Below the pieces are notes generated by a model. It ran no database searches and had not been told where the DNA came from. It worked only from the letters and a program-made list of their open reading frames with translations. From positions 127,652-191,651 of the forward strand of contig CAZFHY010000002.1 in assembly GCA_964519305.1 (NCBI GenBank): a stretch of 64,000 bases of DNA. The letters run 5' to 3'. Made by a program: the position numbers and the translations under genes. Within the stretch, counting starts at the first letter, position 1. Each line of letters begins with the position of its first letter. Positions 41,459-63,301 of this stretch are shown here, piece after piece. Source of the stretch: Candidatus Undinarchaeota archaeon. GTDB lineage: Archaea; SpSt-1190; JASMDC01.

Positions 41459-41481
41459 ACTATATCGAAGGACGGACAAGG

Positions 41482-41489
41482 ATATAAAT
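41482..41489. promoter_or_regulatory. Bidirectional TATA box (ATATAAAT)
   Basis: Lies ~22 nt from ATG 41511 (+) and ~24 nt from ATG 41458 (-). Confidence 0.6.
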
Positions 41490-41510
41490 GTGACTACGGA
41501 CCACAACCCC

Positions 41511-42860
41511 ATGGCCTTGTTCGGAACAGCGGGCATACGAGGTCCCCTCTCCAAAGTATCCCCTGAAGTATGTATGAACGTGGGAATGGCCCTTGCTACC
41601 TATATGGGGAACGACGGTAAGGTCGTTGTGGCTAGGGACGGTCGCATAACTGGCCAGATGCTCTTCCACGCTCTTACTTCCGGTATAATGGCCGGTGGTG
41701 TCGACGTGCTCGATGCCGGCCGCCTCCCGACTCCTCTGCTGGCATTCGCTTCCTATAATTATGTGGTGGACGGTGGAGTGATGCTCACAGCATCCCACAA
41801 TCCCGCTTCTGACAATGGGATCAAGCTGTTCACCCCTGATGGTAGCGAGTTCGAGCTCACCGCCGAACAACAGGTCGAGGAACTCGTGAGCGATGGTAGC
41901 TTCAATCTCGCCCGATGGGATGAGATCGGTACAATTGGTACCATGGATACTGTACTTGAGGAGTATATCGACTACCTGCTTGGATTTGTCGAATTGGAGC
42001 GTGAACTGCGCGTTGTAGTGGATTGTGCCAACGGCGTGGGTGCCTTGGTCGCACCACAAGTACTCCGCCGCATGGGATGTAAGGTCATTACTACTAATTC
42101 ACAGATCGACGGTTTCTTTCCCGGACGTCCCGCAGAACCAACGCCCGAGAACATCCGTGAATTCACTCAAGTGGTACGTTCGACCGGAGCGGATATCGGT
42201 TTCGCATTGGACGGCGATGCGGACCGAGTGGCAGTGGTCGACAGCGAAGGCACCATCGTGCAGGACGATGCTCTCATCAACCTCTTCTCGCGCCTAGCCA
42301 TCGAGAAACATGGTGGGGGCACCGTGGTGACGTCGATCAACACGTCACGGGCCATTCAGGAGACGGTGGAATCCGCCGGAGGCAAACTCAAGCGGGTCCG
42401 ACTGGGGGCGCTCCACGAGGGGATTAAAGATACTGGTGCCGTTTTTGGTGCCGAGCCGTGGAAGCTCATATTCCCTGAGTTCGGTGGATGGATCGATGGG
42501 ATATTCTGCGCTGCACGCATCGCAGCTCTAGTGAGCCGCGAAGGCTCGCTTGCAGATCTCGTGCCCCCGGTTCCGGCATATCCTCTTATCCGCAAGAACG
42601 TATACGTCACCCCTGGCACCCAGCCAGATATTATGTCCCACGTGCACGAGCAAATGCTCACGACGTTCTCAAATGTGGAGAGCATGCTCGATATCGATGG
42701 ATTGCGTTTGGACACTCCGGACGGATGGCTGCTGGTCCGCGCTTCTGGGACCGAACCAAAAATCCGGGTCGTGGCCGAGGGTCGAACGGATCGTATCGCG
42801 AACGATTATTTCTCGAAAGGGATGGGATTCGTCCAAGAGGCCGTAGGGAAGGCCGAGTAG
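41511..42860 (+). CDS. glmM: Phosphohexomutase (phosphoglucosamine/phosphomannomutase family)
   Basis: LFGTAGIRG, TASHNP (phospho-Ser), DGDADR and VRASGTEP motifs. Exact substrate is uncertain. Confidence 0.88.
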   Translation: MALFGTAGIRGPLSKVSPEVCMNVGMALATYMGNDGKVVVARDGRITGQMLFHALTSGIMAGGVDVLDAGRLPTPLLAFASYNYVVDGGVMLTASHNPASDNGIKLFTPDGSEFELTAEQQVEELVSDGSFNLARWDEIGTIGTMDTVLEEYIDYLLGFVELERELRVVVDCANGVGALVAPQVLRRMGCKVITTNSQIDGFFPGRPAEPTPENIREFTQVVRSTGADIGFALDGDADRVAVVDSEGTIVQDDALINLFSRLAIEKHGGGTVVTSINTSRAIQETVESAGGKLKRVRLGALHEGIKDTGAVFGAEPWKLIFPEFGGWIDGIFCAARIAALVSREGSLADLVPPVPAYPLIRKNVYVTPGTQPDIMSHVHEQMLTTFSNVESMLDIDGLRLDTPDGWLLVRASGTEPKIRVVAEGRTDRIANDYFSKGMGFVQEAVGKAE

Positions 42861-51694: not shown

Positions 51695-52903
51695 ATGCGC
51701 GAGGCGCCGTGGGTGGAAAAACACCGTCCACGCCGTCTCAAAGACGTTCTCGGGAATCCTTCTGTCGTCAAACGGATGGAAGGATGGTTGCTCAACTGGA
51801 AGGCAGAACGCCACAAGGCGCTGCTCATCCATGGCGCTGCAGGGTGTGGGAAGACCACTGCCGCTCATGCCTTGGCGGAGGAATTTGACCGGGAAGTGGT
51901 GGAGCTCAACGCTTCCGACTTCCGACGTAAGGTGGATATCAACGATATAATGGGTAATGCCGCCACCCAGCAAAGCCTCTTCCAGCGTGAGCGGATCCTC
52001 CTGCTCGATGAGGTCGATGGGATACATGGAACGGCCGACCGGGGCGGCCTCCCTTCGGTGCTCAAGATCATACGGGCCACAGCGTACCCCGTGATCCTCA
52101 CAGCGAACGATATCTATCAGCCCAAGCTCAGGGCGCTAAGAAACCTGTGCGAGGTCGTCCCGTTCCGCAAGCCCACGGTCGTTGCGGTGAAGAAGGCCCT
52201 ATGTCGCGTGGCCGAATCCGAGGGGAAGGATGTCGAGGATCACCTCCTCACCGACATCGCCAGCCGTTCTGGGGGCGATATCCGTGCCGCCATCAACGAC
52301 CTACAGACAGCTCTCGCAGGAGGTATCCCTCTCGCGGACATCGAGGCGCTTGGGGACCGGGACCAGACACGGTCGCTCACGGAGGCCGTGCGCATCGTGC
52401 TCAAGACACGGAACATCCAGCATGCACTCGAAGCGACAGACAATCTCACAGAGGACCCGGACACGGTGTTCACCTGGATAGCGCATAATGTCGCGCTCGA
52501 GTACGATGATCCTGAGGACTTGGCCCGGGCAATGGACAGGCTCTCTCGTGCCGACGTGTTCCGCGGACGGATTTTCCGGTCACAGAACTGGCGCTACCTC
52601 GTTTACATGCGAGACCTCATGACCGCCGGTGTTGCCCTAGCGAAACGCGACAAGTACCGCAAGTTCGTCAAGTACGGTTATCCCCAGCGCATCATACGGA
52701 TGGGGCGGAGCAAGGAGCTGCGTGCCACACGGGACGAGATAGCTGAGAAGGTGGCTCGGCGGTGCCATACATCGCGTCGTGTCGTCATCGACGAGTATCT
52801 CCCCGTCCTGGTCCGTGTCCTTCCCCGCTCACCTGAGCTCGCAGAAGGACTAGGGCTCACTGATTCGGACGTGACGTTCCTCGCGGAGTTCTTAGATCGC
52901 TAA
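51695..52903 (+). CDS. rfcL: Replication factor C large subunit
   Basis: PWVEKHRP, G..GCGKTT, ELNASD.R, LLDEVDG, GDIRAAINDLQ and LSRADVF.GRI motifs. Confidence 0.95.
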   Translation: MREAPWVEKHRPRRLKDVLGNPSVVKRMEGWLLNWKAERHKALLIHGAAGCGKTTAAHALAEEFDREVVELNASDFRRKVDINDIMGNAATQQSLFQRERILLLDEVDGIHGTADRGGLPSVLKIIRATAYPVILTANDIYQPKLRALRNLCEVVPFRKPTVVAVKKALCRVAESEGKDVEDHLLTDIASRSGGDIRAAINDLQTALAGGIPLADIEALGDRDQTRSLTEAVRIVLKTRNIQHALEATDNLTEDPDTVFTWIAHNVALEYDDPEDLARAMDRLSRADVFRGRIFRSQNWRYLVYMRDLMTAGVALAKRDKYRKFVKYGYPQRIIRMGRSKELRATRDEIAEKVARRCHTSRRVVIDEYLPVLVRVLPRSPELAEGLGLTDSDVTFLAEFLDR

Positions 52904-53704: not shown

Positions 53705-54550
53705 ATGACCGACCACTATCATACGGTGCTCCCTGCCGGCTATGTCGTTATCAAGGCAAAGGCGGACGGACGACGGACTCTCAGCTTCCGATATCGCGGG
53801 ATGGCCCAGTTCGTAAAGCGCCTGTTCATCGCGCTCGCGCGGCTCGAGAGCTCATACAATGTGCGGCTCCGTGACTCGCTCTCCCTCGTTCTCGAGTCGA
53901 GGAACGTACCCTCTCGGGACATACCGCGCACTGTGTTCGGTATCAAACCATCATTGGTGGCCATCGGTGTGGACGAGGAGGTGCGCGATATTTCCGCCGG
54001 ATTCGAGGTGGGTGAGTTCACCGACACCGCTCTTCTCGTGACCAACATCGCCCGGGCCCTGCGCCAGGCGACCAAGGTGACCGCGGAACAGATGCGCAAG
54101 TTCACCCGCAAACACTATGCGCCGATCGTGCGGGGGAACATCAACTATAGGCTGAGCGTCCAGGCCGGGCTCCTAGATGCGCTGGAGACCACGGGGAACG
54201 AGCTCATGGCCGCGACGATGGAGGCCTGTCGGGGACCGGGCCGTACTCTCGATGAGCTGGCTGTGGAGCTGTCCGCCCCACGCGACGATGTGGTACGTGC
54301 CGTGCTCACTATGGAGAAGTGCGGGCTCTTGGACCGGCTCGGGCGCGAGGGTGGGGGATGCTACCGGACCCCGACGGAGGAAGGGACCGAAAGCCCTGTT
54401 GACAGCAAGGACGAGTCCGAAACGAAAGCGGGGACATCCAAGATGGCATCGGACGAGCGGAATGGGTCCGGCCACGAGAATTCCGACGATGTCGGTAAGG
54501 GACCCAAAGCGTACGGTATGAACCGTGCTGATGACGAGGACCGCTCCTAG
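53705..54550 (+). CDS. Hypothetical protein with a winged HTH and acidic tail
   Basis: GRTLDELAVELSAPRDDVVRAVLTMEKCGLL; TTATAAA lies ~26 nt upstream of ATG 53705. Confidence 0.65.
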   Translation: MTDHYHTVLPAGYVVIKAKADGRRTLSFRYRGMAQFVKRLFIALARLESSYNVRLRDSLSLVLESRNVPSRDIPRTVFGIKPSLVAIGVDEEVRDISAGFEVGEFTDTALLVTNIARALRQATKVTAEQMRKFTRKHYAPIVRGNINYRLSVQAGLLDALETTGNELMAATMEACRGPGRTLDELAVELSAPRDDVVRAVLTMEKCGLLDRLGREGGGCYRTPTEEGTESPVDSKDESETKAGTSKMASDERNGSGHENSDDVGKGPKAYGMNRADDEDRS

Positions 54551-54963
54551 ATCATCCCGTCCTGAACGAAGTGGGCGATCTGTTTCTTGAACTTCTCGAA
54601 CCCGCCCAGAGTGTTGATGATACCGTCCTTGAACTCACGATAGTCGATACAGGCCATGTCGAAGTCGGTGTCGAAAGCAAGGGTGTCGCCGTGGAGGGAC
54701 GCCTTCATGAGGTTCATCTGGCCTGAAAGCTCCAACAGGCGCTGGTAGAGCATCTCACGTCGTTCCGTCGAGATCTGGTTGACGTTCCCAAGGATGAGAG
54801 AGACGCGCATGAACTTCTCACCGGGGATGATGATCATCTTTGGCTTGAGGTCGATGAGGATGACCTCCGGGTTGTCCGGGGGTGTCGAATGGGGGAGCCC
54901 GATCTTCTCGATCCACTGCTCGACCACCTTTCGGTCCACAACAGCGGGTTCGTCTCCTACCAT
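54547..54963 (-). CDS. YbjN/type III chaperone-fold protein 2
   Basis: VEQWIEKIG, RE.LYQRLLELS.QMNLMK and D..EFKDG motifs; paralogue of the adjacent gene. Confidence 0.7.
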   Translation of the reverse strand: MVGDEPAVVDRKVVEQWIEKIGLPHSTPPDNPEVILIDLKPKMIIIPGEKFMRVSLILGNVNQISTERREMLYQRLLELSGQMNLMKASLHGDTLAFDTDFDMACIDYREFKDGIINTLGGFEKFKKQIAHFVQDGMI

Positions 54964-54969
54964 GTCATC

Positions 54970-55398
54970 TCACCCGTACATGGCGTCTGCCATGTCGTCC
55001 GACTCCTGGCCCTCGATGAGCCGTTTGTACTCGTCGTGCGCTACTGCGAGCGCCTTGAACCCGTCCTTGAACTCGTCGAAGCTCAACGAGTCGAGATCGA
55101 AGTCGATCTTGATACCGATGGTCCGGAACATGATGACGAACTTCATCAGGTTCCACTCAGCATTGGTCTCAAGGAGTTGTTTGAAGAACCGCTCGCGAGA
55201 AGGTACATCGATCTTGGCCAGTGGTTTGAGAAGCGTCATGATATGGGAGTACCGCATCTCGTTGGAGAAGTAGACGATGATGCGGGGTTTGATATCGATG
55301 ACCAGGCCGTTGTAGTCCTTGAGCTCGGGATCGACGAAGTAACGGAAACCCATCCGCTTGATCCATTCCTCGATCTCGACCGGTGTGATGCGGTCCAT
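54970..55398 (-). CDS. YbjN/type III chaperone-fold protein 1
   Basis: IEEWIKRMG, RERFFKQLLETNAEWNLMKF and LDSLSFDEFKDG motifs. Confidence 0.72.
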   Translation of the reverse strand: MDRITPVEIEEWIKRMGFRYFVDPELKDYNGLVIDIKPRIIVYFSNEMRYSHIMTLLKPLAKIDVPSRERFFKQLLETNAEWNLMKFVIMFRTIGIKIDFDLDSLSFDEFKDGFKALAVAHDEYKRLIEGQESDDMADAMYG

Positions 55399-55460
55399 CT
55401 ACTACTCCACCCTCCCCTCGGGTGCGAGTTTTTATATACTTTTATTCGACCCCTGCCGGC

Positions 55461-56747
55461 ATGGAGCGACTCCAAGTTCGTGATGTGCTCGCCGGTGACG
55501 GCGCCGGTGAAAAAGCATGCATCCGGGGGTGGATCCACCGCAAGCGCCAGTCCAAAAAGATCGCTTTTCTCGTCGTCCGTGACGGAACTGACGTGATCCA
55601 GGCCACGGTCCGTGCGGGGACCGAGCCCTTCTCCGAGGCGGAAAAGGTCACGATCGAGTCATCAGTCGAGGTGGAAGGGACAGTGCACGCCGACACGCGT
55701 GCTCCAGGGGGCAAGGAACTGCGGGTGGAGAAGCTAACGATTATTGGACTCGCAGAAACCTTCCCAATCCAGAAGGATCAGAGCACCGAGCTCCTAATGG
55801 ACCTGCGTCACCTGTGGGTGCGCAGCGTTCCAATGAACCGTGTGATGCGCCTGCGTGCCGCCGTCTTCCTGGCCGCCCGCGAGTACTTCGATACAATGGG
55901 GTTCGTCGAGGTCCATCCGCCCATGTTCATCACGGCCGCCTGCGAGGGAGGATCGACCCTGTTCAAGGTGCCGTACTTCGGCAAGAAAGCCTACCTCACA
56001 CAGAGCTCGCAGTTCTACCTTGAGGCGCTCATCACAGGACTGGAGCGTGTGTACTGCGTTGCACCGTCATTCCGCGCGGAGAAGTCGCGGACAACTCGTC
56101 ATCTCACCGAGTTCTGGCACATCGAGGCCGAGGAGGCCTTCTGCGGGCTTGAGGGCACCATGCGGACCCAGGAGGACCTTGTCGCCCACATCTGCCAGAC
56201 CATTGCCGCAAGGTTCCCCGAGGAACTGAGGGCCATGGGCCGGGATCCGGACGTAATCGCTGATGTGAAAGCACCCTTCGATCGCATATCCTATGACAAG
56301 TCCATCGATATCCTCCAGGGCAGGGGCGTCGACATCCCCTGGGGCGCAGACTTGGGCACGAAGGAGGAGCGGGAGCTCACAATGGAGTTCGAACAACCGT
56401 TCTTCGTGTACCATTATCCTGCCGAGGCCAAGGCGTTCTACCATCGGCTGGATCCCAATGATACCTCCAAGGTGCTGTGCGCTGACATGCTGGCACCCGA
56501 GGGCCATGGGGAGATAGTCGGCGGTGGTGAAAGGACCTGGACCGTGGAAGAGATAATGGCCCGTATCAACGAGGAGGATCTCGATACCACCGATTATGAG
56601 TGGTACCTGGATCTGCGCAAGTATGGCGGCGTGCCACATGCCGGTTTCGGTCTGGGGGCCGCCCGGCTCATCAAATGGGTCTGTGGTATGGAGCATATCC
56701 GCGACGCTCTCCCGTTCCCGCGGACAATGAACCGCATCTATCCATGA
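55461..56747 (+). CDS. asnS: Asparaginyl-tRNA synthetase
   Basis: OB-fold GWIHR.R and FLVVRDGT; ACEGGSTLF, YLTQS.Q.YLE, FRAEKSRT.RHLTEFWH.EAE and PHAGFGLG motifs. Confidence 0.93.
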   Translation: MERLQVRDVLAGDGAGEKACIRGWIHRKRQSKKIAFLVVRDGTDVIQATVRAGTEPFSEAEKVTIESSVEVEGTVHADTRAPGGKELRVEKLTIIGLAETFPIQKDQSTELLMDLRHLWVRSVPMNRVMRLRAAVFLAAREYFDTMGFVEVHPPMFITAACEGGSTLFKVPYFGKKAYLTQSSQFYLEALITGLERVYCVAPSFRAEKSRTTRHLTEFWHIEAEEAFCGLEGTMRTQEDLVAHICQTIAARFPEELRAMGRDPDVIADVKAPFDRISYDKSIDILQGRGVDIPWGADLGTKEERELTMEFEQPFFVYHYPAEAKAFYHRLDPNDTSKVLCADMLAPEGHGEIVGGGERTWTVEEIMARINEEDLDTTDYEWYLDLRKYGGVPHAGFGLGAARLIKWVCGMEHIRDALPFPRTMNRIYP

Positions 56748-56775
56748 TCATATCATATTCACGAGGTAACTCACT

Positions 56776-56919
56776 ATGTGTGCAAAATGTTCAGTGTGCG
56801 GCTCGGACGTCGACCGCCTCCCGTTCAGGACCCAGGATGGCAAGAAGGTCTGCTCGGTCATCTGTGCCCAAGGGAAGCGGGAGGACATCAAAAAGAAACA
56901 GTCCTTCGGCGTGTACTGA
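56776..56919 (+). CDS. 47-aa TRASH/YHS-like zinc-finger microprotein (not in ORF track)
   Basis: MCAKCSVCGSDVDRLPFRTQDGKKVCSVICAQGKREDIKKKQSFGVY; SD-like GAGGT at 56763-56767. Confidence 0.7.
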   Translation: MCAKCSVCGSDVDRLPFRTQDGKKVCSVICAQGKREDIKKKQSFGVY

Positions 56920-56999
56920 GACAGGGGTCCGGAGCCGGGCCTGATGGGAAGGATATCCACGACCCCATACGGGGCGAACCGGAACGGTGCGAGAGTACC

Positions 57000-57797
57000 A
57001 TGGAGCGAGCGGTCTACGTAACCAGGGCGGGGAGCCTGCGGCTCACCGAGGGCGACTATACCCGCCTCTACTTCGGTGCTGAGTTCTGCCAAAATCTCAT
57101 CCCAACGGTGAAAGAGCTGGGCAAGGCGATCGACCATACCACGACCCATGATATGGCGTTCACCCTCATGACCCCTTACGTGACGGCGGAAGGTCTGGCG
57201 AGCCTGGAGCCGCTCCTCGACGTCCTCGCGGAACGAGTTCCAGAGGCGGAGGTGGTCATCAACGACTGGGGGACGCTCCACCTGCTTGAGGAGCGGTCAG
57301 ATAAGTTCACACCTGTCCTCGGCAGGCTGATCACAAAACAGAAGCGCGGACCGCGGGCCGTAAAGCTAATTGGGAACGTGCCCGATACGATGCTCGATCC
57401 ATTACGCTCCATAGGGGTGACCGCACCCCTCTTCAAGAGGTTCCTCGCCAATCATGGCATTTCCCGTGTCGAGCTCGACAATCCCCTGCATGGGCTCGAT
57501 GTGGACCTGACCGCCGGAGATCCGACGATGGCAGGCTCATTGTACACACCCTACGTATACATATCCACGACCCGTAAGTGCCTGACGAATGCCTGTGATC
57601 GGACCCGTGAGGCTGTCGGCATACGTCCTTGTGGGCGGGAGTGCGATCGGTTCACGTTCACTCGGACCCATCCGTCGATGCCCGTCCCGCTGATCCTGCG
57701 AGGTAACACTCACTTCGTTCTCAACGATGTCCTACCGGAGTTGCTCGAAGAACGCGGTATCGACCGCCTTGTTGTGGAGCCGGAGGTGCCGCTCTAG
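57000..57797 (+). CDS. Peptidase U32-family Fe-S protein, short (UbiV-like) subunit
   Basis: RLYFGAEFC, EVVINDWG, LGRL..KQKR.PR and RVELDN motifs; C-terminal Cys cluster RKC...C...CGREC; GNT.F. Confidence 0.82.
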   Translation: MERAVYVTRAGSLRLTEGDYTRLYFGAEFCQNLIPTVKELGKAIDHTTTHDMAFTLMTPYVTAEGLASLEPLLDVLAERVPEAEVVINDWGTLHLLEERSDKFTPVLGRLITKQKRGPRAVKLIGNVPDTMLDPLRSIGVTAPLFKRFLANHGISRVELDNPLHGLDVDLTAGDPTMAGSLYTPYVYISTTRKCLTNACDRTREAVGIRPCGRECDRFTFTRTHPSMPVPLILRGNTHFVLNDVLPELLEERGIDRLVVEPEVPL

Positions 57798-58784
57798 ATG
57801 GATCGCCGATCGATGCATGTTCTGGCACCCATCAGCTCACCCGATGAGGTCGCACCGCTAGTGGAGGCCGGTGCTGACGAGTTCTTCTGCGGCCTGCTCC
57901 CTTCCGAGTGGCTCGAACGCTATGGTCTTGTAGGCTCCATCAATCGTCGTTATGAGATGGCGGCACAGATGACCGATCCATCCGAACTGACACGTGCTGT
58001 CGAATTGGCTCATGACCGCTCAACCTCCCTCTTCGTCACGCTCAACGCCCACTACTATGTTCCCTCCCAGTATCCCTTACTCGCGCGTATCGTGGACGAC
58101 ATAATCACGGCCGGTGCTGACGGCCTGCTCGTCGCCGATCCGGCGTTCATGCTCTGGATGCGCGAGCAGGGGTACGACATCCCTCTACATCTAAGCGCCG
58201 GAGGTGCCGTGCTCAATCCGCGGGCAGCCGCGTTCATGTGGGATTCCTTCGATCTGTCCCGGATCGTCCTCCCCCGTCACCTCACCATCGGGGAGATCAG
58301 CGAGCTCGTGACATCCCTACCCGACATGACGTTCGAGGTATTCATAATCAATGAGCCGTGCATCAACGTCGACGGTCTGTGCACCTTTCAGCATGGGCTG
58401 GCGAAAATAACAGGTGACGAGCTAAACTGCTGCGACATACAGTGGGACCTGTCATCCGGATCGGACGACGCGGACCCTGTAGCCCTGCGCACTATCAGAG
58501 CGCATGTCGCTTCCGGCCGGCGGGGGAGCGGTGCGTGCGGTGCGTGCGCCCTCTTCGATCTCCAGAGGGCTGGTGTGGCTGCTGTGAAAGTGGTCGGTCG
58601 TGGGCTTCCGATAAAGGACAAGGCACGTGATGTCGCCTTCGTCGCCGGGCTGGTCCGGTTCCTTGAAGAGGAGGGTCCTGACCGAGATGCTTTCGTCGCC
58701 GAGGCCAAGCAGCGTCATGCACGTGAGTATCGCACGCTGTGCAAGCCGCGGCTCTGCTATTACCCCGAGCCCGCTACTCGCTGA
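57798..58784 (+). CDS. Peptidase U32-family Fe-S protein (UbiU/TrhP-like) subunit
   Basis: VLAP, AGADEFFCG, FVTLNA, HLS.G..V.N, RIVLPRHL, EVF....C..VDG.C, CGAC and KVVGR motifs. Confidence 0.88.
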   Translation: MDRRSMHVLAPISSPDEVAPLVEAGADEFFCGLLPSEWLERYGLVGSINRRYEMAAQMTDPSELTRAVELAHDRSTSLFVTLNAHYYVPSQYPLLARIVDDIITAGADGLLVADPAFMLWMREQGYDIPLHLSAGGAVLNPRAAAFMWDSFDLSRIVLPRHLTIGEISELVTSLPDMTFEVFIINEPCINVDGLCTFQHGLAKITGDELNCCDIQWDLSSGSDDADPVALRTIRAHVASGRRGSGACGACALFDLQRAGVAAVKVVGRGLPIKDKARDVAFVAGLVRFLEEEGPDRDAFVAEAKQRHAREYRTLCKPRLCYYPEPATR

Positions 58785-58821
58785 GGCAGACTATTTATTC
58801 ATTGGCCTCCTGACAGGGAAC

Positions 58822-59454
58822 ATGAAAGTAGTGGTCGTCAGCGGCAGTATGCGCTCTGACGACATCGTAGAGAAGCTCATCGAGAGCTGCATCATGGGCC
58901 TCAAGGCCGCGGGCGAGCCCATGGACGTGGAGCATGTCGTGCTCAGGGAGGAGGAGATAGGGTTCTGCACCGCTTGTCTCCAATGCATGGAGAAGGATGG
59001 CCTCCCCCTGGGGGTCTGTCAGCTCACCAGTGATCGGACGCACGACCTACTCATCAAGATGCGCGAGGCCGATCGTGTCGTTCTGGCCACACCCCTCATG
59101 ATGGGGACGGTGACCTCTCTGATGAAACGGTTCCTCGAGCGGTGCGCACCGCTCACCTATAATACATCGCGGGGGCGGCGGTCAAGGGTCAAGAAGCGCA
59201 AGGGGAAGATGGGGGCGATAATCCTCGTCCACTCGTTCTTCCCCGTGCTGTCCAGGATCGTGGGTAAGGACCGTGCTGCTCGGACAATGCTCAAGCTCAT
59301 ACTTCGCTCATCAGGTTGTGAAAAGGTCAAGATCCTCTCGATCCGTATCCCCCGTATAAAGTCATTCAGGGTGGACAGGGTCCGCGGCCGCGGCTTCAAC
59401 CTCGGTCTGTCTCTGGCCAAGCCTCTTGTGAAGAAGGGCCTGCGCGGCGCCTAG
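58822..59454 (+). CDS. Flavodoxin-fold iron-sulfur flavoprotein / NAD(P)H-dependent FMN reductase family protein
   Basis: VSGSMR, CTACLQC...C, AD.VVLATP and MKRFLER motifs. Confidence 0.85.
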   Translation: MKVVVVSGSMRSDDIVEKLIESCIMGLKAAGEPMDVEHVVLREEEIGFCTACLQCMEKDGLPLGVCQLTSDRTHDLLIKMREADRVVLATPLMMGTVTSLMKRFLERCAPLTYNTSRGRRSRVKKRKGKMGAIILVHSFFPVLSRIVGKDRAARTMLKLILRSSGCEKVKILSIRIPRIKSFRVDRVRGRGFNLGLSLAKPLVKKGLRGA

Positions 59455-59485
59455 CTTTTTATAATCTCATCCTCACAGGGATGCT

Positions 59486-60556
59486 ATGGACACCTTCGGA
59501 AGGTATCTGCGGGCCACGTGCGCTGGAGAGTCACACGGCCCTGCGGTCGGGGTAATCGTGGACGGGGTACTCCCTGGCCTGCCTCTCCGGACGGAGGACA
59601 TCCAGAGCGAACTGGACCGGCGACGGCCCGGGACATCCCCGTGGACCTCGCCCCGCCGTGAGCCTGATACCGTGGAGGTGCTCTCCGGCGTGCTGGAAGG
59701 GAAGACCACAGGGATGCCCGTCATGATGGTGGTCCGTAACGCCGACGCTCGCGATGAGGACTACCCCGAAGGCCCTGTGCGCCCGTCCCACGGAGATCTG
59801 GTCTACCGCCAGCGGTTCGGCGTTGTTGCTCCTGGTGGAGGCCGGTACAGTGGACGGGAGACCGTCTCGCGTGTATGCGCCGGTGCAGTGGCACGTGCAG
59901 TGCTCGCGCCCATGGACATAATCATCCGGTCGCACATCGCTGCCATCGGCACAGTGGATGATCCGCTGGACATGGACCGTCTCGACAAGCTCACAGCGTT
60001 CGGCACCCATACCGAGAAGGCCGCTAAGGCCATGCAGGCCGAGGTTATATCAGCCAAGGACGATGGCGATTCCGTGGGCGGTGTCGTCGAAGTGGTGGTC
60101 ACGAACATCCCGCCAGGGCTCGGTTCGCCCGTCGCGGGCAAGCTCGACGCCGATCTCGCATCTGCCTGCATGTCGATCGGGGGGGTCAAGGGTGTGGAAC
60201 TGGGAGCAGGATTCGCTGCCACCCGCATGCGCGGTAGCGAACACAACGATCCCTATCGCCTCATGAAAGGTAAGATGGTCCCCACTACCAATAACGCAGG
60301 TGGGGTCGTCGCAGGCATCTCCACGGGTGCGCCTCTTGTGGTCCGCCTGGCAGTTAAACCGACGGCGACCATCGCCAAACCTCAGGACACTGTCGATCTG
60401 GCGACCGGGCAGGAGACCTCCGTGACCTTCGGCGGACGTCATGATCCATGTCTGGTCCCGCGATTGCGGTACGTGGCCGAGGCCATGGTCGCGCTGGTGC
60501 TGGCCGACCACGTGCTCGACCCGGTATGGCAACGCTCCAGGTCTGGAAACGAATAA
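59486..60556 (+). CDS. aroC: Chorismate synthase
   Basis: GESHG, RRPG, GKTTG.P, RPSH.D, GGGR.SGRET, GDSVGG, GISTG, KPT.TI and GRHDPC motifs. Confidence 0.96.
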   Translation: MDTFGRYLRATCAGESHGPAVGVIVDGVLPGLPLRTEDIQSELDRRRPGTSPWTSPRREPDTVEVLSGVLEGKTTGMPVMMVVRNADARDEDYPEGPVRPSHGDLVYRQRFGVVAPGGGRYSGRETVSRVCAGAVARAVLAPMDIIIRSHIAAIGTVDDPLDMDRLDKLTAFGTHTEKAAKAMQAEVISAKDDGDSVGGVVEVVVTNIPPGLGSPVAGKLDADLASACMSIGGVKGVELGAGFAATRMRGSEHNDPYRLMKGKMVPTTNNAGGVVAGISTGAPLVVRLAVKPTATIAKPQDTVDLATGQETSVTFGGRHDPCLVPRLRYVAEAMVALVLADHVLDPVWQRSRSGNE

Positions 60557-60559
60557 TCC

Positions 60560-60712
60560 GTACAGGATTCGTATAATTGGGCGAGATTATCGATTTAAAT
60601 CGGAATAAAACGGTTAATTATTTGTTTATAACTTCTATTAAGCTATAATATTCGTTTTTAGAAACTATTAAACCGAAACCCATATAAAGGATCGAGAGAC
60701 CTTTCAATCCAG
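60560..60712 (+). promoter_or_regulatory. AT-rich intergenic control region with a palindrome and TATA box
   Basis: Perfect palindrome CGATTTAAATCG at 60591-60602; CTATTAA occurs twice; ATATAAA (60682-60688) lies ~24 nt before ATG 60713. Confidence 0.6.
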
Positions 60713-61957
60713 ATGGCCCTCCTCCAGCAGATAGCTATCCTTGAGATATCCATTCTCATAGCCATCTGTACGTTCTGGATCCTGCTCTATTTCTACCTCA
60801 AAGCAGGTTCCAAGAAGAGCCCGCTACCGCTGGACGAGCTGCCGCCCATCACGGTGGTCGTCCCGGCCCATAACGAGGAGAGTAGCATCGGGAGGACAAT
60901 CCAGCACGTTCTGGACGCGGACTATCCGGACAAACGTGTCATAGTCGTGAACGACGGCTCCACCGATGGGACGGCCGAGCAGATCGCCCTCTACGCAGAC
61001 CGTGTAACCGTCATCAAACATGAGACCAATCTCGGGAAGGCCGCAGGCCTCAACCATGCAATCGCTGACGCTACGACGGACATAATCGTCACCGTTGATG
61101 CCGACAGCCTAATCGCTCCGGACTCCCTGCGCAACATCGTCCGTCACTTCGCCGACTCCGATGTCGGTGCCGTGGCCGGGTGTGTCAAGGTCCACAATAA
61201 CGAATCCATATTCCAACGTATCCAGGACCTGGAGTACCTACAGTGCTTCTTCCAGCGCGAGATCCAGGACATGGTCAACGCCGTTACCATCACTCCGGGC
61301 CCGCTCTCCGCTTATCGTAAGGACGTGCTCACCGCCTTAGGCGGTTTCAAGAACGACACTCTCGTCGAGGACTTCGACATGTGCATCCGTATCCACCGAC
61401 TCGGGTTCCATGTGCGCTCGGACGTGGAGAGCGTCGTGCGTACCGTTGCCCCCGGTCTTTCGGGCTGGTGGCGGCAGCGGACACGGTGGTTCCGTGGTGG
61501 CATCCAGCTGCTGCGCAAGCACTCTGATATGGTGTTCAACCAGGACTACTCGTTCCTGGGTATGGTCATGTTCCCCATGGCCATCTTCTGGCTGTTCGTA
61601 CCGGTCATAGCCGTCCCTACCATAATCCTCAACTCACTCCCCGAATGGGCATTGGTTGAGGCCAACCTGGATATCCTGCTATCCCAGGGATTCATGGCGC
61701 TCCTGGCCGCTCAGGTGGCTACAGTGACCACCAGCCTCTACACGCTCGGTAAGCTCACTCTCTTCAGGGCCCTCTCGGCCCTTTCCATGGTACTCGGCTT
61801 CATCTACGTCTACCTGTCCATCCGTGTATCCCGAGAGTCGCTCGCTACCTACCTGGTCATCCTACCGCTCATTGGCCTCTATTCGTGCCTGCTCCTCACC
61901 GTGTGCCTCAAGTCCGTTGTGGAGGAGCTCTTTGTGGCCAAGGGATCCGAATGGTGA
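60713..61957 (+). CDS. Processive GT2 glycosyltransferase (PgaC/IcaA/cellulose-synthase-like)
   Basis: PAHNEE, NDGSTD, GKA..LN, DAD, VEDFD and QRTRW motifs; C-terminal TM helices. Confidence 0.92.
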   Translation: MALLQQIAILEISILIAICTFWILLYFYLKAGSKKSPLPLDELPPITVVVPAHNEESSIGRTIQHVLDADYPDKRVIVVNDGSTDGTAEQIALYADRVTVIKHETNLGKAAGLNHAIADATTDIIVTVDADSLIAPDSLRNIVRHFADSDVGAVAGCVKVHNNESIFQRIQDLEYLQCFFQREIQDMVNAVTITPGPLSAYRKDVLTALGGFKNDTLVEDFDMCIRIHRLGFHVRSDVESVVRTVAPGLSGWWRQRTRWFRGGIQLLRKHSDMVFNQDYSFLGMVMFPMAIFWLFVPVIAVPTIILNSLPEWALVEANLDILLSQGFMALLAAQVATVTTSLYTLGKLTLFRALSALSMVLGFIYVYLSIRVSRESLATYLVILPLIGLYSCLLLTVCLKSVVEELFVAKGSEW

Positions 61958-61963
61958 GCGCCG

Positions 61964-63301
61964 GTGCGGCGTGACCTCCTCGTGCTCCCGCTGCTCCTCC
62001 TGTGCGGTCTGCTACGGCTGACACCTGCGATCGGCGCCATCGCCCCGCTCGACGTTGATGGCTTCTACCACGTCCGGATGACCACGGTGGTCCAGGACGA
62101 TCTGATGTCAGGGCTCACGAGCCCATATCCGCTTTTCCATATCCTTCTGGGGCTCATGTCCCGGGTAATGGAGCTGGACGTCCTTGTGGTCGTACGCCTG
62201 ATACCTCCCCTACTGGCCTCCTTGGGCGTGATCACCCTCTACGTATGCGTCCGTGACCTCGCCTCTTTCAAGGCAGCGCTGCTGGCCGCGTTCTTCTACA
62301 CGACGACACCGCTGCTCATCCAGACCTCCTATGGGCCTTTCTCTCTGGCCCATCTGTTCCTCCCCCTGCTCGCACGCGAGCTCGTCCGGCAGCGGAGCAA
62401 TCGGGCGATAGGAGTGCTCACGTTCGCCTTGGCCTCCACTGGCGGGTTCGCAGTGTGGCTTACCGTGTTCGTGGTCTATTCGTTCACCTTCGGGTACGGT
62501 ACTCATAGGCTCAAGGCCGTGCGCCGGGCCGTGACCCTTGGGCTCGTGCCGGTCGCATTGATGGCATGGTTCGCAGGCACCCTTGTTCCCGCAGCGTCCA
62601 CGGTGGGTCCCGGGCGACCGGACATCGGTATCCCCTCGGTGGGCGTAGGTCTCCTATTCCTCCTACTGTTCCTGGAATCGTTCGAGGAGGGACCGCGCTT
62701 GGCCAGGTTCCTCATCATCCTGGCAGGCACATGCTTCTTCGGTTACCTGCTGGGACGCGCCTTCCAACTCGACTTCTTGGTCACATTTGCCGTCGCTGTT
62801 GTGATGATGGAGGCCATCGGTGCCCATTTCTTCATCGGGCGGGGCACGGCCGTCATTTACAGAGCCACTGCCATGGTGGCGATCATTGCATTTGCCCTGC
62901 TACACGCATGGAACGTGAGCGAAGCTATCCGGCCAGCCATCAACTACGAGGAGTTCACGGCCGTCAAAGACATGACCGACCTACCGGCTGACTCAGTGGT
63001 GCTCTCCGACGAGGTCAACATGGAGCTGCTGGCGACCGTGTCGTCGATTGATGTGATGTTGACCCGGGAGGTGTTCAATCGCAAGCACTGGACTGACTTC
63101 CACCTCCTAATGGCCACCAACAACATCACATGTGGTCTGGTGCGACGACATAATATCACCCATGTGTTCCTCACACCCCGGGTCCAGCGCCGGTTCCCTT
63201 ACGCGCTCAAGTACTCGGGTCTTCCCGCAGTACCTGAATACCGGATATCGGACGATCTCAAGCTCGTGGAGATCAAGGCGTACTGCCAGCACAGAGCGTG
63301 A
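61964..63301 (+). CDS. Polytopic membrane protein, GT-C-like (putative lipid-donor glycosyltransferase)
   Basis: First loop D.DGFYH and YPLFH; ~10 TM helices; C-terminal VLSD...NITHVFL domain. Confidence 0.65.
   Translation: MRRDLLVLPLLLLCGLLRLTPAIGAIAPLDVDGFYHVRMTTVVQDDLMSGLTSPYPLFHILLGLMSRVMELDVLVVVRLIPPLLASLGVITLYVCVRDLASFKAALLAAFFYTTTPLLIQTSYGPFSLAHLFLPLLARELVRQRSNRAIGVLTFALASTGGFAVWLTVFVVYSFTFGYGTHRLKAVRRAVTLGLVPVALMAWFAGTLVPAASTVGPGRPDIGIPSVGVGLLFLLLFLESFEEGPRLARFLIILAGTCFFGYLLGRAFQLDFLVTFAVAVVMMEAIGAHFFIGRGTAVIYRATAMVAIIAFALLHAWNVSEAIRPAINYEEFTAVKDMTDLPADSVVLSDEVNMELLATVSSIDVMLTREVFNRKHWTDFHLLMATNNITCGLVRRHNITHVFLTPRVQRRFPYALKYSGLPAVPEYRISDDLKLVEIKAYCQHRA

What the first reader, a model, noticed from the sequence alone, without database searches (positions are those of the whole stretch)
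56776..60556. U32-U32-Fe/S flavoprotein-chorismate synthase cluster: candidate O2-independent hydroxylation system
Seen: co-oriented, tightly spaced genes for a microprotein, two abutting U32 proteins with Cys clusters, an iron-sulfur flavoprotein and an intact aroC, with no other aro genes in the window. Established: U32 proteins (RlhA, TrhP, UbiU/UbiV) are Fe-S hydroxylases that depend on prephenate, which derives from chorismate; AroC needs reduced FMN. Inference: the cluster links oxygen-donor supply and flavin/electron supply to a UbiUV-like heterodimer acting on an unknown target (RNA, lipid/quinone or peptide), since archaea do not make ubiquinone. Caveat: aroC has its own TATA box (59457-59464), and no chorismate mutase is in the window.
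Basis: partly seen in the sequence, partly recalled or inferred. Interest (0 to 1): 0.7.

Follow-up and report, generated by a model that had tools for sequence, protein, structure and literature searches.

The report
Cryptic two-subunit U32 iron-sulfur enzyme
Two abutting genes in this archaeon encode a matched pair of iron-sulfur proteins built like UbiU-UbiV, the enzyme that adds oxygen atoms without O2, while the neighbouring chorismate synthase gene looks like an ordinary housekeeping gene that merely lies next door.

Summary
U32-B (57798-58784) is a true Peptidase_U32 protein with a UbiU-type CX6CX16CX34C motif. U32-A (57000-57797) is invisible to Pfam and NCBIfam. Its model is a TIM barrel closest to the one solved U32 structure, and it carries a UbiV-type CXnCX16CX3C motif. 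It sits beside a U32-B gene in 53 of 80 related loci. A complex prediction supports binding (0.93; best control 0.00). So the "UbiUV-like heterodimer" reading holds, and this partner family is not recognised by Pfam or NCBIfam.

The link to aroC and the flavoprotein does not hold up:
- It occurs only in this genus: 1 of 80 U32-A loci, 0 of 15 other archaeal aroC loci, 0 of 28 other archaeal Isf-like loci.
- aroC is the genome's single copy, and the three other aromatic-pathway families I searched (chorismate mutase, EPSP synthase, prephenate dehydratase) lie on other contigs.
- The flavoprotein and aroC each have their own TATA-like box, conserved in the congener.

The genome holds seven such pairs plus four lone U32-B genes. 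Most lie in glycan or envelope gene islands. The substrate is unknown. Verdict: a new variant of a known kind, of moderate interest.

The parts
56748..56759 (+). AT-rich, TATA-like stretch 17-28 nt before the microprotein ATG; likely promoter of the microprotein-U32-A-U32-B unit
   Evidence: Read from the sequence. It is conserved except for 1 nt in the congener. No TATA-like stretch lies between the microprotein and U32-A or between U32-A and U32-B. No transcript data are available.
56776..56919 (+). 47-aa Cys-rich microprotein (C2, C5, C8, C26, C30; basic C-terminal part). Its role is unknown: zinc-ribbon-like accessory protein or substrate peptide.
   Evidence: ORF. pN/pS is 0.18 against the congener, and 3.95 for the overlapping frame. 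Only weak Pfam hits below cut-off: DUF7573 at E 0.013 and an Rrn7 zinc ribbon at E 0.049. No paralogue in the genome and no similar small ORF upstream of the pairs in the 80 loci.
57000..57797 (+). U32-A: small subunit, a UbiV-like TIM-barrel Fe-S protein from a family that Pfam and NCBIfam do not recognise
   Evidence: No Pfam or NCBIfam hit. 271 homologues, with none of the 120 listed carrying a Pfam domain. C30, C194 and C215 are invariant and C211 is kept in at least 90% of 30 sequences. AlphaFold2 pLDDT 90.6. The best solved match is U32 Mk0906 (5d88): Foldseek E 6.9e-5 and VIA-align Z 13.2, rmsd 3.8 over 196 residues, with the next entry at Z 11.4.
57798..58784 (+). U32-B: large subunit, a Peptidase_U32 Fe-S protein with a UbiU-type cysteine motif plus three further invariant cysteines
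   Evidence: PF01136 at E 5.7e-26. C188, C195, C212, C247, C250, C315 and C320 are invariant in 34 sequences. hhalign against E. coli UbiU gives 99.7% probability, E 1.6e-25. The model gives Z 17.4 to 5d88.
58792..58799 (+). TATA-like box (TATTTATT) 23-30 nt before the flavoprotein ATG
   Evidence: It reads as TTTTTATT at the same place in the congener.
58822..59454 (+). Isf-like Fe-S flavoprotein (FMN_red fold, CX2CX2CX10C). It neighbours the pair; a functional tie is not shown.
   Evidence: Only distant relatives exist outside the genus: the best is 38% identical at E 2.9e-27. The best solved relative is 7d38 'Cd1' at E 1.4e-19, which has the same cysteine motif region.
59456..59465 (+). TATA-like box (TTTTTATAAT) 21-30 nt before the aroC ATG
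   Evidence: TTTTTATA is conserved in the congener.
59486..60556 (+). aroC, chorismate synthase. It is the genome's only copy and probably an independent housekeeping gene.

Best explanation
The core of the finding is a three-gene unit: microprotein, U32-A and U32-B.

U32-A and U32-B form a heterodimeric iron-sulfur enzyme of the UbiU-UbiV type. The large subunit is a canonical U32 TIM barrel with a CX6CX16CX34C cluster site. The small subunit is a very divergent U32-like barrel with a CXnCX16CX3C site. The two cysteine regions lie at the predicted subunit interface.

By analogy with UbiU-UbiV, TrhP and RlhA, the pair most likely carries out an O2-independent two-electron oxidation or hydroxylation. 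Its clusters would pass the electrons on, and prephenate would be the likely oxygen donor.

The substrate is not ubiquinone, and the pair is not an orthologue of the known RNA hydroxylases. The settings of the six sister pairs in the genome point to cell-envelope glycan or lipid-linked intermediates. The co-transcribed Cys-rich microprotein is a second candidate substrate.

The flavoprotein and aroC downstream are separate transcription units. aroC is the housekeeping chorismate synthase. Its position beside the pair is most likely a genus-specific accident of gene order. The Isf-like protein could serve either neighbour, as electron sink for the U32 pair or as FMN reductant for AroC. Neither role is shown.

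Shown here: gene structure, family membership, conserved pairing, cysteine motifs, fold, and limits of the synteny. Inferred: binding, Fe-S content, chemistry, prephenate use and substrate.
For: Pairing
- U32-A lies within 300 nt of a U32-B gene on the same strand in 53 of 80 related loci (36 in order B-A, 17 in order A-B). Five more have U32-B further off, and 22 have none. Seven of those 22 sit within 1.1 kb of a locus end.
- In this genome all 7 U32-A paralogues abut a U32-B. All 7 have one-to-one orthologues at 84-93% identity in the congener.
- The groupings (C1b,C6) and (C13,C1a) recur in both subunit trees, so pairs duplicated as units.

Binding
- Predicted complex score 0.93, best of 3 controls 0.00. 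This mark was reached by 58 of 80 solved complexes and by 2 of 110 mismatched pairs. The tool says these counts hold only roughly because my own alignments were used.
- The runs agree in at least 89% of contacts, and the partner's pLDDT is at least 91.
- No solved chain resembles either protein by sequence, so a pass from memory is unlikely.
- Interface residues include U32-B 189-198, 211, 214-222 and 320, and U32-A 187-202, 206-209 and 214. These are the cysteine regions.

Family
- PF01136 for U32-B.
- hhalign of the U32-B family against E. coli UbiU: 99.7% probability.
- U32-A ranks 5d88 first by two methods. Its margin over other TIM barrels (13.2 against 11.4) is like that of the true U32 subunit (17.4 against 15.8).
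- The nearest Atlas cluster that has a Pfam family is Peptidase_U32, a weak lead at score 0.80.

Cysteine motifs
- They match those reported for UbiU (CX6CX16CX38C) and UbiV (CXnCX12CX3C), each binding a 4Fe-4S cluster in a heterodimer (PMC6747719, passages read).
- All 7 own U32-A paralogues keep the 4 cysteines. Of the 11 own U32-B paralogues, 9 keep C212 and all 11 keep the other six cysteines.

Not UbiU or TrhP
- 88 bits against a cut-off of 440, and 66 against 534.
- In the tree, E. coli UbiU, TrhP and the RlhA N-domain group away from these proteins, together with the genome's separate 715-aa U32.

Prephenate can be made
- aroC, two CM_2 genes, EPSP synthase and prephenate dehydratase are all present.

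Independence of aroC and the flavoprotein

Glycan setting of the sister pairs
- Neighbours include PMT_2 GT-C genes, a DegT aminotransferase, a hexapeptide acyltransferase, an epimerase, GT2, AsnB-type and B12-radical-SAM genes (69 of 99 called ORFs scanned).
- All nine close PMT_2 paralogues lie in the two islands that also hold U32 pairs.
- In the window a PgaC-like GT2 gene and a multi-pass membrane protein follow aroC.
Against: - U32-A has no significant sequence likeness to UbiV (hhalign probability 0.4%). Its likeness to its own partner family is borderline (47%, E 2e-4, 79 columns). Homology to U32 therefore rests on a TIM-barrel match only about 2 Z units above unrelated barrels.
- No direct activity has been shown in vitro for any U32 protein (PMC10990095 and PMC11574389, passages read). 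'Hydroxylase' is therefore an analogy.
- The proposed prephenate mechanism needs an aromatic ring. A sugar or lipid substrate would not offer one.
- Neighbourhoods in other genomes are heterogeneous. In 71 of the 80 loci (9 dropped, see the full report) the counts were: radical SAM 17, B12-radical SAM 13, FAD_binding_4 12, Ham1 9, GT2 8, LipA 8, LplA 7, CCG 7, ETF-beta 6. No single substrate class follows from this.
- C212 is replaced in 2 of 11 own U32-B paralogues, so the true cluster ligands are uncertain.
- The window's own pair, unlike its sisters, is flanked by asnS, Isf and aroC, with the GT2 gene only beyond them. The glycan inference is therefore weakest for this copy.
- An earlier scan note (e1-2245697, unchecked) reports a U32 pair heading a complete shikimate operon in a bacterium. 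That hints that linkage to prephenate supply can be real in some lineages.
Confidence: 0.6

Rival explanations
1. The microprotein, the U32 pair, the Isf-like flavoprotein and aroC form one functional module. AroC, fed reduced FMN by the flavoprotein, raises the local supply of chorismate and hence prephenate as oxygen donor. The flavoprotein also moves electrons for the U32 heterodimer.
For: - All five genes are co-oriented, with gaps of 80, 0, 37 and 31 nt. The order is kept in the congener.
- Genetic dependence of RlhA and UbiUV on aroC and prephenate is established in E. coli (PMC5727448 and PMC10990095, passages read).
- The published mechanism needs an unidentified electron acceptor. Flavoprotein genes (ETF, FAD_binding_4/CCG) recur next to A-B pairs in other genomes: ETF-beta in 6 and FAD_binding_4 in 12 of 71 loci.
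- The exact 12-mer TCCTSACAGGGA lies just before both the flavoprotein and the aroC start codons. Only 4 copies exist in the 3.6-Mb genome.
- An unchecked scan note describes a U32 pair at the head of a shikimate operon elsewhere.
Against: - The linkage is confined to one genus: 1 of 80 U32-A loci, 0 of 15 other archaeal aroC loci and 0 of 28 other Isf-like loci.
- No chorismate mutase, EPSP synthase or prephenate dehydratase relative lies in the 80 loci.
- aroC is the only copy. The other aromatic-pathway genes I looked for are scattered, so an isolated aroC is the rule here.
- Chorismate mutase, the step that actually makes prephenate, lies on other contigs.
- Separate conserved TATA-like boxes precede the flavoprotein and aroC.
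- The shared 12-mer is not conserved in the congener.
- None of the other six pairs has a flavoprotein or aro gene among the neighbours scanned.
Confidence: 0.15
2. The flavoprotein and aroC form their own two-gene functional pair, unrelated to the U32 genes. The Isf-like protein would reduce FMN for the monofunctional chorismate synthase.
For: - Chorismate synthase needs reduced FMN (established knowledge, recalled).
- The genes are 31 nt apart.
- Both have a TATA-like box followed by the same 12-mer at the same distance from the ATG.
- The pair is kept in the congener.
Against: - No Isf-like relative lies within about 5 kb of aroC in 15 other archaeal genomes.
- No aroC lies within 1.5 kb of 28 other archaeal Isf-like genes.
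- The 12-mer is not conserved in the congener.
- This flavoprotein subfamily has no close relatives outside the genus.
Confidence: 0.2
3. The pair is not a hydroxylase. It could be a U32 'peptidase', or an Fe-S enzyme doing other redox or non-redox chemistry on sugars, lipids or peptides, such as dehydration or reduction. Alternatively U32-A could be a non-catalytic scaffold.
For: - No U32 protein has a demonstrated in vitro activity.
- Some U32 members are reported as collagenases (PMC5727448, passage read).
- Neighbourhoods are rich in radical SAM, glycosyltransferase and sugar-modifying genes, whose substrates often lack the aromatic ring that the prephenate mechanism requires.
Against: - Both subunits keep the Fe-S cysteine motifs shown to be essential in UbiU and UbiV.
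- U32-A has 31 invariant positions, many of them charged (R22, E28, E84, N88, D89, R109, K115, R116, R156, E158, D160, R192, R256). That does not fit a mere scaffold.
- All U32 members with an assigned cellular role and Fe-S motifs are linked to O2-independent hydroxylation.
Confidence: 0.2

Closest known systems
UbiU-UbiV (E. coli YhbU/YhbV), the O2-independent, prephenate-dependent ubiquinone hydroxylase heterodimer
   Same: - Two adjacent co-oriented genes, one larger U32 protein and one smaller.
- The large subunit carries CX6CX16CXnC and the small one CXnCXmCX3C.
- The U32-B family profile aligns to UbiU at 99.7% probability.
- A heterodimer is predicted.
   Different: - U32-B is far below the UbiU equivalog cut-off (88 bits against 440) and branches apart from UbiU.
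- U32-A is not detectably similar to UbiV in sequence and is not in PF01136.
- Gene order in the window is small then large, the reverse of ubiU-ubiV. Both orders occur in the family.
- U32-B has three extra invariant cysteines (C250, C315, C320).
- The host is an archaeon.
- No UbiT-like gene was sought.
TrhP (tRNA ho5U34) and RlhA (23S rRNA ho5C2501) U32 hydroxylases
   Same: Both have a U32 domain with an Fe-S cysteine motif. Their dependence on prephenate is established genetically.
   Different: - They are single-chain enzymes with extra domains.
- U32-B scores 66 bits against a TrhP cut-off of 534.
- The genome has a separate 715-aa U32 protein (G000:C1:75910-78033) whose N-domain groups with the RlhA N-domain (SH-aLRT 92). 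That protein is the better candidate for an RNA hydroxylase.
Mk0906 (PDB 5D88), the only solved U32 domain found by my searches
   Same: It is the best structural match of both subunit models: Z 13.2 for U32-A and Z 17.4 for U32-B.
   Different: Sequence identity is 13-17%. Its function is unknown and the solved protein is a single chain. The margin over unrelated TIM barrels is only about 2 Z units.
Iron-sulfur flavoproteins (Isf) of the FMN_red / flavodoxin-like family
   Same: FMN_red fold and a compact N-terminal four-cysteine motif that is invariant in the subfamily.
   Different: The last cysteine spacing is 10 residues; the Isf motif as I recall it is shorter, and I did not check it in a paper. 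No solved Isf chain appeared among the 18 profile hits at E up to 0.001. The best was 7d38 'Cd1'. The subfamily is highly divergent, at most 38% identical outside the genus.

Membership tests
Peptidase_U32 (PF01136), for U32-B | Score above the Pfam gathering cut-off | tested here: met
   91.7 bits against a cut-off of 22.4, E 5.7e-26.
Peptidase_U32 (PF01136), for U32-B | Conserved four-cysteine motif of the CX6CX15-16C...C type | tested here: met
   C188-x6-C195-x16-C212-x34-C247 is invariant in 34 sequences. The published motif was read. C212 is missing in 2 of 11 own paralogues.
Peptidase_U32 (PF01136), for U32-A | Sequence match to the family model | tested here: not met
   No Pfam hit at E up to 10 and no NCBIfam hit at E up to 0.01. 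hhalign against the U32-B family gives 47% probability, E 2e-4, over 79 columns.
Peptidase_U32 (PF01136), for U32-A | U32-type TIM-barrel fold | tested here: met
   5d88 ranks first by Foldseek (E 6.9e-5, TM 0.51/0.54) and by VIA-align (Z 13.2, rmsd 3.8, 196 residues; next entry Z 11.4). The margin is modest.
UbiU (NCBIfam NF047963 equivalog) | Score above the curated cut-off | tested here: not met
   88.4 bits against 440. U32-B branches apart from E. coli UbiU in the tree.
TrhP (NCBIfam NF011996 equivalog) | Score above the curated cut-off | tested here: not met
   66.4 bits against 534.
UbiV | Sequence similarity to UbiV | tested here: not met
   hhalign of the U32-A family against E. coli UbiV gives 0.4% probability.
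UbiV | CXnCX12CX3C-type cysteine layout: one N-terminal cysteine and three C-terminal ones ending in CX3C | tested here: met
   The layout is C30...C194-x16-C211-x3-C215. C30, C194 and C215 are invariant and C211 is kept in at least 90% of 30 sequences. It is kept in 7 of 7 own paralogues. The middle spacing is 16, not 12.
UbiU-UbiV-type heterodimeric Fe-S enzyme | The two subunits are encoded side by side and bind each other | tested here: met
   Adjacency in 53 of 80 loci and in 7 of 7 own pairs. Predicted complex 0.93 against a best control of 0.00; the mark was reached by 58 of 80 solved complexes and 2 of 110 mismatched pairs; contact agreement at least 89%; partner pLDDT at least 91. This is a prediction only.
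UbiU-UbiV-type heterodimeric Fe-S enzyme | One 4Fe-4S cluster per subunit | not testable with these tools
   Needs anaerobic purification, Fe/S analysis and EPR.
UbiU-UbiV-type heterodimeric Fe-S enzyme | Prephenate-dependent O2-independent hydroxylation | not testable with these tools
   Only the prerequisite was tested. The genome encodes aroC, two CM_2 chorismate mutases, EPSP synthase and prephenate dehydratase. 4 of 5 other genomes with A-B pairs have aroC.
UbiU-UbiV-type heterodimeric Fe-S enzyme | UbiT-like SCP2 lipid-binding accessory gene nearby | not tested
   No SCP2 search was run. None of the neighbours scanned showed an SCP2 domain.
Iron-sulfur flavoprotein (Isf) | Flavodoxin-like FMN_red fold with a compact four-cysteine cluster motif | tested here: inconclusive
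   PF03358 at E 8.6e-13. CX2CX2CX10C is invariant in 21 of 21 sequences. No solved Isf chain was among the hits. The reference motif is recalled and was not checked.
Chorismate synthase (AroC) | Score above the equivalog cut-offs over the full length | tested here: met
   NF003793 at 405.4 bits against 321 and TIGR00033 at 378.9 against 212.2. Pfam PF01264 covers 327 of 327 model positions.

The most novel reading that the evidence does not exclude
U32-A/U32-B pairs would be an unrecognised, widespread class of two-subunit O2-independent oxidases or hydroxylases, whose small subunit escapes Pfam and NCBIfam. This archaeal genus would have recruited seven of them to oxidise or hydroxylate cell-envelope glycan, lipid-linked or peptide substrates under anoxia. 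That chemistry has so far been tied only to quinones and RNA bases. At this locus the pair would act on the co-transcribed 47-aa Cys-rich microprotein or on an envelope precursor. The neighbouring Isf-like flavoprotein would be its electron sink, and the adjacent aroC would be a genuine local booster of the prephenate oxygen donor.
Probability: 0.15. Interest if true: 0.75.

Novelty: new variant of a known kind. Interest (0 to 1): 0.45.

Why it matters
U32 proteins are the only known enzymes proposed to hydroxylate substrates with an organic oxygen donor, prephenate. Only three substrates are assigned so far: ubiquinone precursors, tRNA U34 and rRNA C2501.

The published U32 classification was built from Pfam-detected motifs (PMC5727448, passage read). 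It therefore cannot contain the U32-A family. They pair with a dedicated U32-B lineage.

Recognising this pair as a two-subunit enzyme gives a defined target for finding new anaerobic oxidation chemistry, here probably in archaeal envelope biosynthesis.

The analysis also removes a tempting but unsupported inference. An aroC gene next to a U32 gene is not, by itself, evidence of a coupled oxygen-donor supply.

Tried and rejected
- Sequence searches of the PDB with U32-A (0 hits at E up to 10), U32-B (0 hits at E up to 0.1) and the U32-A profile (3 chance-level hits) gave no lead.
- BLASTP of U32-A against U32-B was not significant.
- hhalign of the U32-A family against UbiV and UbiU, and of the U32-B family against UbiV, was not significant.
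- The sigma-70 promoter and terminator scan is uninformative for an archaeon.
- Rfam scan of 55000-61000 at E up to 0.1 gave 0 matches.
- The 80-nt spacer between the microprotein and U32-A shows no significant fold (z -1.09).
- I looked for a conserved small ORF (a possible precursor peptide) upstream of the pairs in the 80 loci. None resembled the microprotein, and the clusters found were fragments of neighbouring genes.
- The word-based homologue search for the flavoprotein found only itself and its same-genus orthologue.
I used the genome search instead.
- The shared 12-mer before the flavoprotein and aroC is not conserved in the congener, so I do not rest anything on it.
- Sequencing runs: no RNA holder was listed for 56700-60600, and read laying was not used. 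Transcription units are therefore inferred from sequence only.
- Supplementary files of the papers, including the U32 subfamily tables and trees of PMC5727448 and PMC6747719, could not be seen. They might show whether U32-B falls in one of the twelve published subfamilies.
- The search of earlier findings by place and by sequence returned nothing.

Full report
**What is there**

The window is the last 64 kb of contig C2 of a 3.63-Mb genome, 99.8% complete. Archaeal genes surround the region:
- An ORF I read as an RFC-like clamp-loader subunit from its translation (not searched) at 51695-52903.
- TFIIE-alpha and family-B DNA polymerase on the same contig.

On the + strand lie the following genes:
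- asnS (55461-56747).
- A 47-aa Cys-rich ORF (56776-56919).
- U32-A (57000-57797, 265 aa).
- U32-B (57798-58784, 328 aa). Its ATG directly follows the U32-A stop codon.
- An FMN_red flavoprotein (58822-59454).
- aroC (59486-60556).
- A PgaC-like GT2 gene (60713-61957).
- A multi-pass membrane protein (61964-63301).

The U32-A start at 57000 is fixed in two ways. All 30 aligned homologues begin at that position. In the congener a 1-nt indel breaks the open upstream extension of the frame. The microprotein ORF is under purifying selection: pN/pS is 0.18, against 3.95 for the overlapping frame. The sample is small, 14 changes in all.

**The two 'U32' proteins**

U32-B is a clear member of Peptidase_U32 (E 5.7e-26).
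- Seven cysteines are invariant in 34 homologues: C188, C195, C212, C247, C250, C315 and C320.
- The first four have the spacing CX6CX16CX34C. UbiU has CX6CX16CX38C (PMC6747719, passages read).
- Its family profile aligns to E. coli UbiU with 99.7% probability.
- It is far below the curated UbiU and TrhP cut-offs.

U32-A is different.
- It has no Pfam hit even at E 10, no NCBIfam hit, and no PDB hit by sequence.
- It has 271 homologues. None of the 120 listed carries a Pfam domain, and those with a name are 'hypothetical protein'.
- Its AlphaFold2 model (pLDDT 90.6) is a TIM barrel. Its best solved match is the U32 domain Mk0906: Foldseek E 6.9e-5, and VIA-align Z 13.2 against 11.4 for the next entry.
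- As a control, the true U32 subunit gives Z 17.4 against 15.8. A margin of about 2 Z units is therefore what a real U32 protein shows against this single template.
- U32-A has the cysteine layout C30...C194-x16-C211-x3-C215. This is the UbiV layout, CXnCX12CX3C.
- Profile comparison with UbiV is not significant. With the U32-B family it is borderline.

**Are they partners?**

Among the 80 best of at least 454 confirmed U32-A loci in species-representative genomes:
- 53 have a U32-B gene within 300 nt on the same strand, in either order.
- 5 have one further away.
- 22 have none, and 7 of those sit near a locus end.

In this genome all seven U32-A paralogues abut a U32-B, and four further U32-B genes stand without a U32-A. 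All seven pairs have one-to-one orthologues in the one congener. The groupings (C1b,C6) and (C13,C1a) recur in both subunit trees.

A complex prediction supports binding:
- Score 0.93, best of 3 controls 0.00.
- The mark was reached by 58 of 80 solved complexes and by 2 of 110 mismatched pairs. These counts are only rough here because my own alignments were used.
- The runs agree in at least 89% of contacts, and the partner's pLDDT is at least 91.
- The interface includes both cysteine regions.
- No like complex was found in the PDB by sequence.

This is a model, not a measurement.

**The link to aroC and the flavoprotein**

The full arrangement (asnS, microprotein, A, B, flavoprotein, aroC) appears in one of the 80 loci (L009) and in the same-genus genome (L095). 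I count these as one lineage. Elsewhere:
- 0 of the other 79 loci has an aroC relative within 8 kb. One (L086) has a distant flavoprotein relative 6 kb away.
- None has a relative of this genome's chorismate mutases, EPSP synthase or prephenate dehydratase.
- 0 of 15 other archaeal aroC loci has a U32-A, U32-B or flavoprotein relative within about 5 kb. Two of these loci are cut by contig ends.
- 0 of 28 other archaeal Isf-like loci has U32 or aroC within 1.5 kb.

Deeper conservation inside the lineage cannot be tested. The 15 sampled class-mates have genomes of 0.6-1.2 Mb and no aroC match.

aroC is single-copy. The three other aromatic-pathway families I searched sit on four other contigs. 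An aroC without aro neighbours is therefore normal for this genome.

TATA-like boxes precede the flavoprotein and aroC and are conserved in the congener. None lies between the microprotein, U32-A and U32-B. The likely units are microprotein-A-B, flavoprotein, and aroC. No RNA data could be found.

**What the pair may do**

Established knowledge:
- UbiU-UbiV, TrhP and RlhA are tied genetically to O2-independent hydroxylation that needs prephenate.
- No in vitro activity has been shown.
- The proposed mechanism needs an aromatic substrate and an unidentified electron acceptor (PMC10990095, PMC11574389 and PMC5727448, passages read).

The genome can make prephenate. 4 of 5 other genomes with A-B pairs have aroC. 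The fifth is of unknown completeness.

Context of the sister pairs. I scanned 69 of 99 called ORFs around them, leaving out short ORFs and ORFs outside the fetched loci.
- One pair lies between a DegT aminotransferase and a hexapeptide acyltransferase, with a B12-radical SAM gene following.
- Two pairs are followed by PMT_2 GT-C genes.
- Other neighbours are GT2, epimerase, AsnB-type, methyltransferase and radical SAM genes.
- All nine close PMT_2 paralogues lie in the two islands that also hold U32 pairs.

Context in other genomes. My crude gene caller lost the U32-A ORF in 9 of the 80 loci (L025, L031, L032, L040, L048, L067, L081, L087, L088). The counts below are therefore from 71 loci.

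| Neighbour family | Loci (of 71) |
|---|---|
| Radical SAM | 17 |
| B12-radical SAM | 13 |
| FAD_binding_4 | 12 |
| Ham1 | 9 |
| GT2 | 8 |
| LipA | 8 |
| LplA | 7 |
| CCG | 7 |
| ETF-beta | 6 |

The pair therefore looks like a general module plugged into several pathways. The recurrence of flavoprotein redox partners fits an enzyme that must dispose of two electrons. That leaves room for the Isf-like protein as a local partner here. It is unproven, and none of the other six pairs has a flavoprotein among the neighbours I scanned.

**Phylogeny**

In a quick maximum-likelihood tree (SH-aLRT only):
- E. coli UbiU, TrhP and the RlhA N-domain group together with the N-domain of the genome's separate 715-aa U32 protein (support 84; RlhA N-domain with that domain, 92).
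- Ten of the eleven U32-B paralogues fall in one group (support 91).
- The window's U32-B, together with its 88%-identical relative P0122, sits on its own long branch of unresolved position.

In the U32-A tree the window copy groups with the C2b copy (95). The C4 copy groups with proteins of other archaea (96). The seven pairs therefore have mixed origins.

U32-A is rare in the archaeal sample. It was found in 3 of 301 genomes: seven copies each in G000 and G001, and one in G232, where it again follows a U32-B gene.

**Earlier scan notes**

These AI notes from other genomes are leads only.
- Several describe the same kind of pair, a divergent U32 protein plus an unnamed UbiV-like partner, in radical-SAM/RiPP clusters and in amine-dehydrogenase operons.
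- One describes such a pair at the head of a complete shikimate operon in a bacterium.

I tested the RiPP idea only to the extent of finding no conserved small ORF upstream in my 80 loci. I could not test the shikimate-operon note.

**Verdict**

The heterodimer reading is supported. The aroC and flavoprotein module is not supported.

I found no description of this partner family in the four literature searches I ran. Those searches cover the held library only, and the papers' supplements were closed.

This is a new variant of a known kind, of moderate interest.

Noticed in passing
whole genome G000; G000:C1:271298-297138 and G000:C4:167406-176421: The U32-A/U32-B family is expanded to seven pairs plus four lone U32-B genes. 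In an archaeal sample U32-A was found in only 3 of 301 genomes. Two islands combine U32 pairs with nine close PMT_2 (GT-C) paralogues (phmmer E of 1e-130 or lower), an AsnB-type gene and a methyltransferase.
   Followed up: partly
whole genome G000 versus relatives: G000 (3.6 Mb) and its single congener (3.8 Mb) are placed in a class whose other 15 sampled genomes are 0.6-1.2 Mb and gave no aroC match. They are large-genome outliers in a small-genome group.
   Followed up: no
G000:C13:1442-3083 (L090): Bacterial-type RuvB and RuvA genes lie on a contig of this otherwise archaeal genome, next to one of the U32 pairs. This could be gene transfer or a binning problem. The U32-A gene on that contig has a 93%-identical orthologue in the congener.
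   Followed up: partly
window 58808-58819 and 59470-59481: The exact 12-mer TCCTSACAGGGA lies 3-5 nt before the start codons of both the flavoprotein and aroC, each about 10 nt after a TATA-like box. Only 4 copies exist in the genome on both strands. It is not conserved in the congener.
   Followed up: yes
G000:C1:75910-78033: A separate 715-aa protein with two U32 domains. Its N-domain groups with the E. coli RlhA N-domain (SH-aLRT 92). It is a candidate rRNA or tRNA hydroxylase of the canonical kind.
   Followed up: partly
window 57798-58784 (U32-B residues C250, C315, C320): Three cysteines beyond the UbiU-type four are invariant in 34 homologues and in 11 of 11 own paralogues. The 'canonical' C212 is replaced in 2 of 11. 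A second metal site or a different ligand set is possible.
   Followed up: no
window 54547-54963 and 54970-55398 (- strand): Two adjacent ORFs of 138 and 142 aa that look like paralogues of each other, upstream of asnS. They were not searched.
   Followed up: no
window 36947-41554 (- strand); G000:C2:14170-29937 (- strand): Very long ORFs of 1535 aa and 5255 aa on the same contig. They were not examined.
   Followed up: no
L015, L018, L019, L035, L043, L052, L053 (Thermodesulfobacteriota-type loci): A recurrent order LplA-like, lipoyl synthase (NF004019, E 7e-118), U32-A, U32-B, often followed by DnaJ. A link to lipoate metabolism or plain synteny are both possible.
   Followed up: no
L016, L027, L041, L044, L046, L049, L060 (archaeal and Dehalococcoidia-type loci): A recurrent order FAD_binding_4, CCG/4Fe-4S protein, FAD_binding_4, U32-B, U32-A, often followed by ETF alpha and beta. 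This suggests flavin-based electron transfer coupled to the pair.
   Followed up: partly
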